Source of the DNA: Ostreococcus lucimarinus
Taxonomy: Eukaryota
Assembly (NCBI GenBank): GCA_000092065.1
Contig: CP000581.1
Reading direction: 5' to 3' (one strand)
Length of the DNA stretch: 64,000 nt
Of the stretch, positions 23,598-26,855 are shown piece after piece. Both the position numbers and the translations under genes were made by a program. The notes below the pieces were generated by a model. The model was not told the DNA's origin and did not search any database. It worked only from the letters and a program-made list of their open reading frames with translations. Every line of letters starts with the position of its first letter. Position 1 is the stretch's first letter.

Positions 23598-24191
23598 TCA
23601 CATCGCCGGAACTTGGAAGTCTGACGCGTTCGGCGGCACGGCGCGACGAGTGACGGTTTGGATAACTTGACGAAGCATTTGGTTCTCTCTTTCCAGAGTC
23701 GTCACGCGGTTTTCCAACTCGTGCAATCGGTTCGCCTTTTGCGCCTCCGTTTGTTCCAAAGACGCGAGATACGCCTTTTTCCGTTCTCGCGCTTGCTGCG
23801 CCGACACGCGGTTTCGCAACAAACGCTTGAGCCGTTTTCTCTCCTTCTCATCCGTGATCGTGTTCAATCGTTCCTCGTCCGCCTTCACGCTCAGCGCCGT
23901 GTTCCCGTGCGGAATGTGCATCGAGTTTCGTCCGACGTACCCCATCCCGAACCCACCCTGATTCGCCGCCGCCCGTCCCCCTCGCGCCGTCGGCTTGCTC
24001 ACCGCCCCGCTCGGCGGCGTCCCGCTCCCTCGCGCCCCCGCCCCCGCGCGCTTCGCCCGTCCGCTCCCGCCGCTCCCCGCCGTCATTCCGGTCGACGTGC
24101 TCGCGCTCGACGTCTGATTCACCGCCTGAAACGTCTGAAACGTCGACGTGAACGCGCTCCGCTCCGTGCTTCGCGCGCCCACCAGTGGCAT
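23598..24191 (-). CDS. HY5: bZIP transcription factor, HY5-type
   Basis: Basic region [24 protein letters not shown] followed by a leucine zipper. This is near-identical to the plant HY5/HYH basic region. Confidence 0.8.
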
Positions 24192-24594
24192 TTACGTGCG
24201 CGTCCCGCGCGCGTCGTCGCGTCGTCGTCGCGTCCGCCGTCGCGCGTCCGTCTTTGCGCGCGTCGAGGCGAGCGCGCGTTCGCGTCTTTGCGCGCGTCGA
24301 GGCGCGCGTGCGGGCGCGCGTCGGTCGGCGCCGCGCGTCGTCGTGTGCGCGCGTCGCGCCGAGGGCGTGACGTCATCGCGCGTCGACGTCGCGAGATCGA
24401 GATCGAGATCGCGACCGGGATGGGAGACGGGACACCTCCGGGGTCCGCGAAACAGTGTTTAGATTACAGGCTATGAAGGACGCGACGCGCGCGAACGAGC
24501 GAGGACGCGCCGGAGACGCGATGGTCGGCGGGTCCTCGCGCGCGCGCGCGCGAGGACGTCGAGGGCGGGAACTAGAGTGGGACGCGCGAGACGC

Positions 24595-25284
24595 CTAGTA
24601 GGCGGCGACGCCGTAGATTGGGCCTCGAATGCGTCGAGCGAGCTGCAAATCCTTGGGCATGATGGTCACGCGCTTGGCGTGAATCGCGCAAAGGTTGCAG
24701 TCCTCGAAAAGATGCACCAAAAAGTCCTCCGTGGCCTCCTGTAACGCTAACAAACTCTCCGCCGTGTAACGCAACGGTTCGGGCGAGAGCTCGTTTGAAA
24801 TCTCTCGAACCTGCGAGTCGAGGGGAAAGCGAGGTTCGTCAGTGTCTGAGAGCGCGTCGGTCGAGCGCGGCGAGACGACGTTCGAATCGTTTACACCGTC
24901 TCGCGCGATGAAACGCACCAATCGCGCGAACGGCATCTTCCGAATCAACAAATCCGTCGTCTTCTGAAACCTCCTAATCTCCTTTAGCGCCAACGTCCCC
25001 GGGCGATAACGCCGCTTCTTCTTGTCTAACTCTGCGCGCGAGGGAAAACGCGCATCACGCACCGCAGTCAGTCTTACGAACACTTCGCGCGCGCGCGCGC
25101 GCCGTCGGGACGCGCCGCGCGCGGCGACGAGGCGAACGAGCGCCGTCGCGGACCCTTCGGACTCCAACAGCCATTGAAATTTCAAAAATCTCAATTCATC
25201 CTTTCCCACGCGTGCGCCTTCTCAACGCCCCCACGCGCGCGCGCGTCGACCCCGAACGTCACATACCTTGTCGCTCCGCGCCAT
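24595..25284 (-). CDS. Histone H3-fold variant (CenH3/CENP-A-like candidate), modelled with 3 exons
   Basis: Exons 25267..25284 (MARSDK), 24919..25029 ([37 protein letters not shown]) and 24595..24810 ([26 protein letters not shown]…[31 protein letters not shown]). Intron 2 (24811..24918) is 108 nt, GTGCGT…CAG with ACTGAC box (A at 24839). Intron 1 (25030..25266) has a GTATGT donor and ACTGAC box (A at 25068). The histone fold is certain; the N-terminal model is uncertain (0.4). Confidence 0.7.
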
Positions 25285-25627
25285 CCGCGCCCGATAATCG
25301 CCGCTGCGGCGCCTGCGTCGCGCAAAGTCACATAAATCGTCAGCGCGTTTCAAGTTTGAAAATCGCATTCGCCACCGCGCCTCGCCGCGCCCCTCTCCGC
25401 GCGTCCGCGTCGCCGCGCACCGCCGCGGAGGTTTCAAGCGTCACCCGCGCGCCTTCGCTCGCGTCGCTCGCGCACCTTGAACCGTTTCCCGTGGAGTCGT
25501 CGCGCCATATCGGCGCGAGTCGTCGAGTGCGGCGCCGCAGACGCGCGCGCGCGACGCCTCGATCGCGCCGCACGCCCCGCACGCGCGCGAGAATCGGTGA
25601 ACGGGACGAAGGAAGACATCGCGCGCC

Positions 25628-26855
25628 ATGGCGAACGCCACGGATCCGCTGGCGAAGACCGTGCGCGGGATGGACCCGCAGGTGCGTCGCGCGCGGCGGC
25701 GCGGATTCGCTCGAAACGACGCGCGAAACGCGCGAAACGCGCGTTCGCGAGGCGACCAGAGACGCGAGACTGACGATGCGATTCGCGCGCTCGTTTTCGT
25801 CGACGCAGAATATCATGGAGCGCATCACGCGCGATAAGGTGTACGCGATGACGTACTGGAAGGAGAAGTGTTTCGCGGTGAGCGCCGAGGCGCTCGTGGA
25901 CTTGGCGGTGGATTTACGCGCGGTGGGGGGAATATACGGCGGGAACAATCGAGCGACGGAGTTTCTGTGTCTCACGCTGAAGCTGTTGCAGATTCAGCCC
26001 GAAAAAGAGATCATATTGGAGTTCATAAAGAACGAAGACCACAAGTACGTGCGGTTGCTCGGGGCGTTTTATCTGCGCTTGGTCGGAAAGCCGACGGATG
26101 TATACCAGTATCTCGAGCCTTTATTGAACGATTACAGGAAGGTTCGGTATCGCAGCCGAGATGGCAAGTACGTGCTGACGCACGTGGACGAGTTTGTGAA
26201 CAACTTGTTGACGAAAGATATGTTTTGCGACGTCGCGTTGCCGCGGGTGCCGCATCGACAGGCGCTCGAAGCCGCGGGATCGCTCGAACCGCGCGTGAGC
26301 GCGTTAGAAACCGACGTGAAAGATTTAGAAGAGCAGTTGGAGAATGCGGTGGAGGAGGCGATCGGGCGCGAGATGCGGATGGACGTCGACGGGGACGACG
26401 ACGAGTTGGACACGACGGCGACACGAGACGCCGCCGGTAAGCGCCCACGTGAGGAGGATGAAGAGGGCGAGCTAGCGAACGCCTCCACGCCAGCGGCCAA
26501 AGTGAACCGGCGGCAACCAGTCGATCTTCACGATGAAGGAAACGCGCGCCATCGTTCGAGGTCGCCGCAGCGTCGCGGCGGCGGTGGCGACTACGGCGAG
26601 CGTCGCGGCGGCGGCGTGAGAGGGTTGTCGCGAGATCGCGGCGGAAATCGCGGTGATCGCGGCGAACATGCGCGCCCAGGCGATCATCGCGCTGATTACT
26701 TTCGCGAGTCTGAAAAAAAGGAAAAGAAAGAGAAGAAAGAGAAGAAGGAAAAGAAGGAAAAGAAGGAAAAGAAACCCGCCGCCGAGGTCGACCCAGAAAT
26801 CGCGGAGGCGAACGCCATTCGCGCCAAGCTCGGGTTAAAGCCCGTGCGAGGTTGA
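25628..26855 (+). CDS. PRP38: Pre-mRNA splicing factor PRP38, 2 exons
   Basis: Exon 1 25628..25681 (MANATDPLAKTVRGMDPQ) and exon 2 25809..26855 (NIMERITRDKVYAMTYWKEKCF…LCLTLKLLQIQPEKEIILEFIKNEDHKYVRLLGAFYLRL…). These match the PRP38 N-terminal domain. The C-terminus is a charged (EKK)n / RS-like tail. 127-nt intron, GTGCGT donor, ACTGAC box (A at 25773). Confidence 0.9.
26712..26775 (+). repeat. Purine-rich (GAAAAG/GAGAAG)n coding repeat giving the (EKK)n tail of PRP38
   Basis: gaaaaaaaggaaaagaaagagaagaaagagaagaaggaaaagaagg… encoding ESEKKEKKEKKEKKEKKEKK. Confidence 0.7.

What the first reader, a model, noticed from the sequence alone, without database searches (positions are those of the whole stretch)
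24811..24918. Stop-free, frame-preserving 108-nt intron in the loop-1 region of an H3-fold (CenH3-like) histone gene
The intron (GTGCGT donor, ACTGAC box with A at 24839, CAG acceptor) is exactly 36 codons and contains no stop. The ORF caller therefore reads it as a 36-aa insertion between alpha-1 and alpha-2. Spliced, the protein reads …[31 protein letters not shown]…, matching H3 [30 protein letters not shown] with a loop 1 only 2 aa longer. Loop 1 plus alpha-2 is the centromere-targeting domain of CenH3. Retention versus removal of this intron would switch between a near-canonical and a greatly extended loop 1. The gene also has a divergent N-terminus. My best model gives a very short tail ([17 protein letters not shown]…) via an 18-nt first exon (25267..25284) and a 237-nt intron. 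A longer tail encoded between them cannot be excluded.
Basis: partly seen in the sequence, partly recalled or inferred. Interest (0 to 1): 0.5.

Follow-up and report, generated by a model that had tools for sequence, protein, structure and literature searches.

The report
Ordinary intron in Ostreococcus centromeric histone
The 108 bases are a normal, already annotated intron in the centromeric histone H3 (CENH3) gene of the green alga Ostreococcus lucimarinus. Its length being a multiple of three with no stop codon is what chance predicts, and relatives do not share it.

Summary
The sequence facts are correct. Window 24811-24918 (minus strand) is a 108-nt GTGCGT...ACTGAC...CAG intron of 36 stop-free codons inside an H3-fold gene.

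It is already known. A four-exon model (25508-25476, 25312-25267, 25031-24919, 24810-24595) translates exactly to XP_001415904.1 of Ostreococcus lucimarinus CCE9901, which removes this intron. The family is the chlorophyte CENH3. A Chlamydomonas schloesseri member matches the antibody peptides of the experimentally validated C. reinhardtii CENH3.1.

The intron sits at an ancient phase-0 site, equivalent to H3 L70|V71. That is inside helix alpha-1, not loop 1. The site is shared with Micromonas, Chlamydomonas and Chlorella, and the Micromonas introns are absent from transcript contigs.

The proposed isoform switch is not supported:
- P(3n and stop-free) is about 0.14.
- Orthologous introns are 71-334 nt and often not 3n.
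- Every 3n one outside the O. lucimarinus group carries in-frame stops.
- One Ostreococcus clade has no intron here.
- Intron 3 diverges like the other two introns, with non-3n indels.

Two details of the finding are wrong. The MARSDK N-terminus is a misread; the tail is [27 protein letters not shown]. Loop 1 is 1 aa longer than in H3, not 2.

Low interest.

The parts
25476..25508 (-). Exon 1 of the CENH3 gene (ATG at 25508-25506; encodes MARRLHGKRFK)
   Evidence: The four-exon translation is identical to P0002 / XP_001415904.1. MARRLHGKRFK is conserved in O. tauri (L001, P0121), L002, L004 and O. mediterraneus P0004.
25313..25475 (-). Intron 1, 163 nt, GTGCGC...CAG, with CTGAC 27 nt upstream of the 3' splice site. 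It contains the AT-rich palindrome TTTCAAACTTGAAA.
25267..25312 (-). Exon 2, 46 nt ([15 protein letters not shown] plus the first base of the E codon).
   Evidence: The frame is conserved in O. tauri ([15 protein letters not shown]) and L004.
25032..25266 (-). Intron 2, 235 nt, GTATGT...CAG, with CTGAC 36 nt upstream of the 3' splice site. It contains the AT-rich block TTTTTGAAATTTCAA.
24919..25031 (-). Exon 3, 113 nt (…[38 protein letters not shown]): end of the tail, alpha-N and the start of alpha-1
24811..24918 (-). Intron 3, the finding itself: 108 nt, phase 0, GTGCGT donor, ACTGAC branch box (A at 24839), CAG acceptor, 36 in-frame codons without a stop
   Evidence: It is removed in the annotated protein. 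The orthologous intron is at the same site in O. tauri, Micromonas, C. schloesseri and Chlorella.
24595..24810 (-). Exon 4, 216 nt including the TAG stop ([71 protein letters not shown]): rest of alpha-1, loop 1, alpha-2, alpha-3 and the CENH3-type C-terminus

Best explanation
The window comes from chromosome 1 of Ostreococcus lucimarinus CCE9901. The gene at 24595-25508 (minus strand) is its single centromeric histone H3 (CENH3), with four exons and three introns, encoding the 135-aa protein XP_001415904.1. The 108 nt at 24811-24918 are its third intron. This is a conventional GT-AG, phase-0 spliceosomal intron with a CTGAC branch site 28 nt from the acceptor. It sits at an ancient position equivalent to H3 L70|V71, in helix alpha-1, which chlorophyte CENH3 genes share.

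I infer that it is constitutively spliced, giving a contiguous histone fold. Its length being a multiple of three with no in-frame stop is an incidental, lineage-specific state with no sign of selection. The one consequence is passive. A transcript that failed to splice it would carry no premature stop, and would encode a 171-aa protein with 36 unconserved residues inserted in alpha-1.

Shown here: the coordinates, the exact match to the annotated protein, the conserved intron position, the variable intron length and frame in relatives, and the lack of coding constraint. Inferred: constitutive splicing in this species, and centromeric function.
For: 1. Gene model. The four-exon model translates exactly to P0002 = XP_001415904.1 / ABO94196.1, on a 1,152,508-bp contig.

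2. Splice signals. All three introns have GT...CAG ends and a CTGAC 27-36 nt upstream of the acceptor.

3. Ortholog models. The O. tauri model P0121 (XP_022838268.1) is the same 135-aa architecture. Its genomic locus L001 has an 84-nt intron at the identical site, and the same neighbours: PRP38 upstream and divergent, bZIP downstream.

4. Conserved site. Micromonas commoda (132 nt), M. pusilla (120 nt), C. schloesseri (334 nt) and Chlorella vulgaris (128 nt) all have a phase-0 intron at the same L|V or L|A site.

5. RNA evidence from relatives. The transcript-like contigs L006 (M. commoda) and L008 (M. pusilla, whose neighbouring LSM gene is also intron-free) lack the intron. MMETSP transcript proteins P0016 and P0018 have no insertion.

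6. Intron-free relatives. An Ostreococcus clade on genomic contigs up to 154 kb has no intron here and encodes the same [13 protein letters not shown] junction.

7. Chance. P(3n and stop-free) is about 0.14. 3n lengths make up 8 of 14 lineages (p = 0.058), or 6 of 12 (p = 0.18) without the two that ORF continuity helped to find.

8. No coding constraint. Against L002, identity is 0.71 for intron 3, 0.83 and 0.74 for introns 1 and 2, and 0.91-0.97 for exons. Against O. tauri it is 0.55 for intron 3, 0.55-0.66 for the other introns and 0.79-0.88 for exons. The indels between the 108-nt and 96-nt introns are not multiples of three.

9. CENH3 identity.
- Pfam Histone E = 7e-40.
- H3 Q68, F84 and T107 are replaced by A, Y and C, and loop 1 is 1 residue longer.
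- Family member P0114 carries the CrCENH3.1 peptides PARPGRKA and KAQAEAATPT..SGAAATPTRG and is 76% identical to the window protein.
- O. tauri is reported to have one CenH3 gene on chromosome 1, ostta01g03890.
Against: No RNA data from O. lucimarinus itself could be examined, so constitutive splicing in this species is inferred from the annotation and from orthologues. 3n lengths are mildly over-represented at this site (8 of 14), and both members of the O. lucimarinus group are stop-free. That is compatible with chance and ascertainment but does not rule out weak selection. By sequence the protein is closer to canonical H3 than to human CENP-A or Arabidopsis CENH3. Centromeric localisation in Ostreococcus has not been shown.
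Confidence: 0.9

Rival explanations
1. Functional in-frame intron retention. O. lucimarinus would make two CENH3 isoforms, the 135-aa form and a 171-aa form with 36 extra residues in the alpha-1/loop-1 region. Retention would escape nonsense-mediated decay because the intron is 3n and stop-free, and would modulate centromere targeting.
For: The intron is 3n and stop-free. The close relative L002/L003 also has a 3n, stop-free intron of 96 nt. The first six retained residues, VRFIAR, resemble the displaced VREISN, so alpha-1 could in principle still form. 3n lengths are slightly enriched at this site (8 of 14, p = 0.058).
Against: The peptide is not conserved even between the two stop-free introns, which are frame-shifted by indels of 10, 1, 2 and 1 nt (P0005 against P0006). 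O. tauri, both Micromonas species and the 72-, 99- and 171-nt lineages have in-frame stops. Six lineages are not 3n. One Ostreococcus clade lacks the intron. Intron 3 diverges as fast as or faster than introns 1 and 2. Retention splits the Pfam histone match into two stretches. The 96-nt case was found only because its ORF is continuous, which is an ascertainment effect.
Confidence: 0.04
2. The 108 nt are not an intron but a genuine coding insertion, constitutively translated as a lineage-specific loop.
For: The continuous ORF across it. Metagenome gene calls include it (P0005, P0122-P0124).
Against: It has canonical donor, branch and acceptor signals, matching the gene's other two introns. 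The deposited protein omits it. The identical site is a demonstrable intron in O. tauri and Micromonas, where it contains stops and is absent from transcripts. The metagenome calls also read through intron 2, so they are ORF-caller artefacts on genomic DNA. There is no protein-level conservation.
Confidence: 0.01
3. The gene is a replacement-type H3 variant (H3.3-like or another H3-like histone) rather than the centromeric histone.
For: The best hits among solved structures are all canonical H3 or H3.3. The histone fold is unusually conserved for a CenH3, at 75-90% identity across chlorophytes. Loop 1 is only 1 residue longer than in H3.
Against: The family includes P0114, which carries the peptides used to raise the CrCENH3.1 antibodies. 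That protein gives punctate nuclear staining and binds centromeric ZeppL regions, and the two CENH3 paralogs are jointly essential (bioRxiv 10.1101/2025.03.28.645958). O. tauri has a separate H3.3 gene (ostta08g00200) and one CenH3 gene on chromosome 1. The tail lacks the ARTKQTARKS / K4, K9, K27, K36 context. Q68, F84 and T107 are all replaced.
Confidence: 0.05

Closest known systems
XP_001415904.1 / ABO94196.1 (UniProt A4RRH7), 'predicted protein', Ostreococcus lucimarinus CCE9901; and XP_022838268.1 'Histone core', O. tauri
   Same: The window's four-exon translation is identical over all 135 residues to the O. lucimarinus entry. The O. tauri protein falls in the same 90%-identity cluster, with the same exon structure and gene neighbours.
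   Different: Nothing differs for O. lucimarinus. The database name does not say CENH3. The O. tauri intron is 84 nt and has two in-frame stops.
Chlamydomonas reinhardtii CENH3.1 (Cre16.g661450) and CENH3.2, experimentally validated chlorophyte centromeric histones (bioRxiv 10.1101/2025.03.28.645958)
   Same: Same family. The C. schloesseri orthologue P0114 is 76% identical over 98% of the spliced window protein. It shares the EDCNLC motif, the (R/P)EP(F/L)R(W/Y)TAE loop-1/alpha-2 motif, the GPxxG(V/I)xx C-terminus, and a phase-0 intron at the same L|V site.
   Different: The Ostreococcus tail is shorter (about 34 aa before RYRPG) and starts MARRLHGK instead of MARTKQ. It has Y where the others have W (H3 F84). 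There is a single gene copy. No localisation data exist for Ostreococcus.
3n, stop-free short introns that are invisible to nonsense-mediated decay (concept from Paramecium and other eukaryotes; see PMC5014332 and PMC2911113, listed)
   Same: The intron belongs formally to this class. Its retention would create no premature stop.
   Different: In those studies the class is under-represented because it is deleterious. That describes a genome-wide statistical bias, not a regulatory device. Here the state is not conserved among orthologues, so nothing indicates it is used.
Exitrons and functional in-frame intron retention (plants and animals; from my own knowledge, not checked here)
   Same: Length is a multiple of three, there is no stop, and the element is flanked by coding sequence.
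   Different: Exitrons have exon-like composition and coding conservation. This element evolves like the gene's other introns and is lost or frame-shifted in relatives.

Membership tests
CenH3 / CENP-A centromeric histone H3 variants | H3-type histone fold domain | tested here: met
   Pfam PF00125 Histone, E = 7.4e-40, profile positions 22-122 of 122 in one stretch for the spliced protein. PDB H3 hits at E about 1e-40.
CenH3 / CENP-A centromeric histone H3 variants | N-terminal tail not alignable with the canonical H3 tail (no ARTKQTARKS, no K4/K9/K27/K36 context) | tested here: met
   The tail is [32 protein letters not shown]. Only a weak KAP(R/Q) resemblance to H3 appears in the pairwise alignment. 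A preprint states that these lysines are not conserved in O. tauri CenH3.
CenH3 / CENP-A centromeric histone H3 variants | Loop 1 longer than in H3 | tested here: met
One residue longer ([14 protein letters not shown] against [13 protein letters not shown]).
CenH3 / CENP-A centromeric histone H3 variants | Replacement of the H3-invariant residues Q68, F84 and T107 (criterion recalled from the CenH3 literature, not re-read here) | tested here: met
   PFARL (Q68 to A), LRY (F84 to Y; W in other chlorophytes) and EDCNLC (T107 to C), seen in the alignments.
CenH3 / CENP-A centromeric histone H3 variants | Orthology to an experimentally validated CENH3 | tested here: met
   P0114 (C. schloesseri) carries the CrCENH3.1 antibody peptide sequences. 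It is 76% identical to the window protein and shares the intron position.
CenH3 / CENP-A centromeric histone H3 variants | Separate canonical H3 and H3.3 genes in the same genome, with a single CenH3 | not tested
   Reported for O. tauri: two H3.1, one H3.3 and one CenH3 (ostta01g03890). There is no other H3 or H4 gene in this 64-kb window. The rest of the O. lucimarinus genome was not examined.
CenH3 / CENP-A centromeric histone H3 variants | Localisation to centromeres and essential role in segregation | not testable with these tools
   No Ostreococcus localisation data were found.
Canonical GT-AG spliceosomal intron | GT donor, branch-site consensus (CTRAY) 20-40 nt upstream of an AG acceptor | tested here: met
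   GTGCGT, ACTGAC with the branch A 28 nt from the CAG acceptor. The same layout holds in introns 1 and 2 and in most orthologous introns.
Canonical GT-AG spliceosomal intron | Removal restores an uninterrupted conserved protein, and the position is shared with orthologues | tested here: met
   Spliced product is 100% identical over 100% coverage to P0002. The same phase-0 site is used in O. tauri, Micromonas, C. schloesseri and Chlorella. Intron-free relatives encode the same junction.
Canonical GT-AG spliceosomal intron | Absent from mature mRNA | tested here: inconclusive
   Shown for the orthologous introns of M. commoda and M. pusilla (contigs L006 and L008; MMETSP proteins P0016 and P0018). 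No O. lucimarinus RNA was available.
Functional in-frame retained intron / exitron | Length a multiple of three with no in-frame stop | tested here: met
   108 nt, 36 codons, no stop. The chance probability is about 0.14.
Functional in-frame retained intron / exitron | The reading frame stays open in related species | tested here: not met
   In-frame stops in the 72-, 84-, 99-, 120-, 132- and 171-nt orthologues. Non-3n lengths of 71, 73, 92, 101, 112, 119, 128 and 334 nt. The intron is absent from one Ostreococcus clade.
Functional in-frame retained intron / exitron | Coding-type sequence constraint on the retained segment | tested here: not met
   Identity to L002 is 0.71 for intron 3 against 0.91-0.97 for exons. 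Identity to O. tauri is 0.55 against 0.79-0.88. Indels are not multiples of three.

The most novel reading that the evidence does not exclude
In O. lucimarinus and its closest relative, and only there, the CENH3 alpha-1 intron has drifted into a state invisible to nonsense-mediated decay. Occasional retention would then produce a stable 171-aa (or 167-aa) CENH3 carrying a disordered insertion after a rebuilt alpha-1 ([11 protein letters not shown]...). That protein would be incorporated into chromatin and would alter centromere behaviour, making this a young, lineage-specific CENH3 isoform.
Probability: 0.03. Interest if true: 0.45.

Novelty: already known. Interest (0 to 1): 0.08.

Why it matters
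It matters little. The gene, its exon-intron structure and its assignment to CenH3 are already in public databases and in the literature.

The exercise has three practical uses:
2. It shows that 3n, stop-free introns in GC-rich compact genomes are common by chance (about 1 in 7 at this length). They should not be flagged without cross-species support.
3. It documents that prokaryote-style gene callers, and one O. tauri GenBank model, deposit intron-read-through 'histone H3' proteins.

If the unlikely retained isoform were real, it would be a rare case of an alternative CenH3 protein isoform in a minimal eukaryote.

Tried and rejected
1. A striking length pattern. The first five orthologous introns measured 84, 96, 108, 120 and 132 nt, all multiples of 12 (note). 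A metagenome scan added 71, 72, 73, 92, 99, 101, 112, 119 and 171 nt, and two genomes added 128 and 334 nt. The pattern dissolved. The 3n excess is 8 of 14 (p = 0.058), or 6 of 12 (p = 0.18) without the two ascertained cases.

2. AlphaFold2 models of the spliced protein (pLDDT 45, eight-sequence alignment) and of the intron-retaining ORF P0005 (pLDDT 35, single sequence). Both are too uncertain to use. I note only that the spliced model places a helix at residues 61-72, spanning the L64|V65 intron site.

3. Rfam scan of 24300-25700 on both strands. The only match is a sub-threshold miRNA hit (22.5 bits against a gathering score of 94, E = 0.35). There is no intron-hosted RNA and no histone 3' stem-loop.

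4. Test for a repeated or mobile 'introner'. BLAST of intron 3 against the window gave only chance matches of 20 nt or less.

5. The look-up of encoding contigs for P0002 returned 'not on record'. The O. lucimarinus locus could not be re-fetched, so its identity rests on the exact protein match.

6. Search among cluster members for an mRNA-like sequence that retains intron 3 but has introns 1 and 2 spliced. All members (P0122-P0125) also read through intron 2, so they come from genomic DNA.

Full report
**What is at the coordinates**

On the minus strand, 24918..24811 is exactly 108 nt. It starts GTGCGT, contains ACTGAC at 24843-24838 (branch A at 24839, 28 nt before the 3' end) and ends CAG. 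In the frame of the flanking coding sequence it reads [36 protein letters not shown] with no stop. Each of the other two frames has one stop. The mechanical ORF list reads straight through it as a 204-aa ORF, 24595..25209.

**Whose gene it is**

The window is 60.5% G+C. The spliced exon 3 + exon 4 product is 100% identical over 100% of its length to P0002, a 135-aa 'predicted protein' of Ostreococcus lucimarinus CCE9901. Its accessions are XP_001415904.1, ABO94196.1 and UniProt A4RRH7, and it lies on a 1,152,508-bp contig.

I rebuilt the gene from the window. The exons are 25508-25476, 25312-25267, 25031-24919 and 24810-24595. The introns are 163, 235 and 108 nt. The translation is identical to P0002 residue for residue. 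All three introns have GT...CAG ends and a CTGAC 27-36 nt upstream of the acceptor. The public annotation therefore already removes this intron.

The real exon 2 is read as ...GAT GGC GCG GAG CGA CAA G|. It joins the CAG acceptor ending at 25032 to give G|AG = Glu. It is preceded by exon 1, which starts at ATG 25508 (MARRLHGKRFK). The tail is [38 protein letters not shown].

This tail is conserved in several relatives:
- The O. tauri genomic sequence (L001) and protein P0121, [32 protein letters not shown].
- The environmental Ostreococcus contigs L002 and L004.
- O. mediterraneus P0004, and in outline Micromonas (MAR(R/K)LQG(R/K)...).

**Is it CenH3?**

The spliced protein matches Pfam Histone at E = 7e-40 in one stretch. 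With the intron retained, the match breaks into two stretches.

Aligned with H3, Q68, F84 and T107 are replaced by A, Y and C. The tail lacks the canonical H3 motifs.

The best solved-structure hits are all canonical H3. Across chlorophytes the family is 75-90% identical, which is unusually conservative for a CenH3.

The link to function comes from Chlamydomonas. A 2025 preprint validates CrCENH3.1 and CrCENH3.2 by punctate nuclear staining, CUT&Tag at ZeppL centromeres and joint essentiality. It also gives the antibody peptides PARPGRKA and KAQAEAATPTKSKRPSGAAATPTRG. P0114 from C. schloesseri begins MARTKQSKPARPGRKAQAEAATPTNTKRGSGAAATPTRG. It is 76% identical to the window protein over 98% of its length.

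A 2026 preprint lists one CenH3 gene on O. tauri chromosome 1 (ostta01g03890), beside two H3.1 genes and one H3.3 gene. Earlier surveys already counted CenH3 in O. lucimarinus, and another paper notes that CenH3 had been analysed in two Ostreococcus species. The 'CenH3-like' reading is right, and it is already known.

**Where the intron sits**

L64|V65 of the protein aligns with H3 L70|V71. In the published nucleosome structure, alpha-1 spans about residues 63-77 (my own knowledge). The site is therefore inside alpha-1, about seven residues before loop 1. The low-confidence AlphaFold model also puts a helix over residues 61-72. Retention would interrupt alpha-1 rather than simply lengthen loop 1.

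**The intron is ancient and ordinary**

A phase-0 intron lies at exactly this codon boundary in each of the following:

| Species or locus | Length | In-frame stops |
|---|---|---|
| O. tauri (L001) | 84 nt | two |
| Micromonas commoda | 132 nt | one |
| M. pusilla | 120 nt | two |
| Chlamydomonas schloesseri | 334 nt | not 3n |
| Chlorella vulgaris | 128 nt | not 3n |

Chloropicon primus lacks it.

Contigs L006 and L008 carry the M. commoda and M. pusilla proteins as uninterrupted ORFs. In L008 the neighbouring LSM gene is also intron-free. They therefore look transcript-derived and show the orthologous intron being spliced. MMETSP transcript proteins agree.

**Test of the isoform-switch idea**

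Chance. With the intron's own composition, 43% of shuffles are stop-free in frame. Multiplying by 1/3 for a 3n length gives about 0.14.

Conservation of frame. A metagenome scan returned 80 loci, and I measured the gap between the PF(A/C)RL and VREISNE codons in each. Together with the genome loci, the distinct Mamiellales lineages have intron lengths of 71, 72, 73, 84, 92, 96, 99, 101, 108, 112, 119, 120, 132 and 171 nt.
- Eight of 14 are 3n (p = 0.058). Six of 12 are 3n (p = 0.18) once the focal intron and the 96-nt one, which was found through its continuous ORF, are set aside.
- Only the 108-nt intron and the 96-nt intron of a close relative are stop-free.
- An Ostreococcus clade on genomic contigs up to 154 kb (L010-L021, L062) has no intron here. 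Nor does L004, which still carries introns 1 and 2 and the upstream PRP38 start. All of these encode the same [13 protein letters not shown] junction.

Coding constraint. The 108- and 96-nt introns differ by indels of 10, 1, 2 and 1 nt, so their translations are unrelated after the first six residues. The segment-by-segment identities of the window gene are as follows:

| Compared with | Exons | Intron 1 | Intron 2 | Intron 3 |
|---|---|---|---|---|
| L002 | 0.91-0.97 | 0.83 | 0.74 | 0.71 |
| O. tauri | 0.79-0.88 | 0.66 | 0.55 | 0.55 |

Intron 3 behaves like the other introns.

Nothing supports a selected retained isoform. What remains true is only passive: an unspliced transcript here would not carry a premature stop.

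**Other checks**

- No Rfam family matches the locus.
- Intron 3 is not a repeated element in the window.
- There are no other H3 or H4 genes in the window.
- All intron-containing 'proteins' in the databases (P0005, P0006, P0122-P0125) also read through intron 2. They are ORF calls on genomic DNA, not evidence of retained mRNA.

**Verdict**

This is a correctly observed but ordinary and already annotated intron in the O. lucimarinus CENH3 gene. The isoform-switch speculation is unsupported, the structural placement is slightly off, and the N-terminal model is wrong. Novelty: already known. Interest: low.

Noticed in passing
L004; L010-L021 and L062 (Ostreococcus-type); L026, L030, L031 (Micromonas-type); compare window 24811-24918: The alpha-1 intron of CENH3 varies in presence among closely related Mamiellales. 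One Ostreococcus clade, on genomic contigs up to 154 kb, has lost it precisely while keeping introns 1 and 2. Some Micromonas-like genomic contigs also lack it. The site is otherwise shared with Chlorophyceae and Trebouxiophyceae, so these are recent precise intron losses.
   Followed up: partly
L001 3001-3447 (O. tauri RCC1115, GCA_002158475.1; protein P0009): This GenBank model is wrong. It starts at an ATG inside intron 2 (MRTCECDDARTDLVQKK...). It uses a GTCGCG pseudo-donor that leaves 30 nt of intron 3 in the CDS, giving a 10-aa insertion VRIIVLACAR. The RCC4221 model P0121 / XP_022838268.1 has the correct 135-aa structure.
   Followed up: yes
P0005, P0006, P0122-P0125 (JGI/ENA metagenome gene calls; loci L002, L003, L009): Prokaryote-style gene callers deposit 'histone H3' proteins of 153-223 aa that translate through introns 2 and 3 of Ostreococcus CENH3. 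These chimeric sequences sit in public protein collections.
   Followed up: yes
window 25348-25361 (intron 1) and 25170-25190 (intron 2); L001, L002, L004, L010, L011, L054 at equivalent places: Introns 1 and 2 are otherwise GC-rich and poorly conserved, yet each carries a short AT-rich, partly palindromic block. In the window these are TTTCAAACTTGAAA and TTTTTGAAATTTCAA. In other Ostreococcus lineages the equivalents are TTGAAATTCAAAAA, GAATTTGAAAATC and GAATTTCAAAATTTC, at about the same place. Each motif occurs only once in the 64-kb window. This may be an intronic regulatory element of CENH3; its function is unknown.
   Followed up: partly
window 25509-25627, with flanking genes at 25628 onwards (+) and 23598-24191 (-): CENH3 is transcribed divergently from a PRP38-like splicing-factor gene. 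Its exon 1 starts at ATG 25628 (MANATDPLAKTVRGMDPQ). Only 119 bp separate the two start codons, so they probably share a bidirectional promoter. A bZIP gene lies downstream (197-aa ORF 23598-24191, minus strand). The order PRP38-CENH3-bZIP is conserved in O. tauri.
   Followed up: partly
introns at the CENH3 L|V site in L001, L002, window, L007, L005: The first five orthologous introns examined measured 84, 96, 108, 120 and 132 nt, an arithmetic series in steps of 12. Wider sampling (71, 72, 73, 92, 99, 101, 112, 119, 171, 128, 334 nt) showed this was coincidence.
   Followed up: yes
window 24400-24425 (minus strand, 3' of the CENH3 stop): A short (GATCTC)n-like palindromic run, cgcgatctcgatctcgatctcgcga, lies about 170 nt downstream of the stop codon, in the region between CENH3 and the bZIP gene. 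It was not examined further.
   Followed up: no
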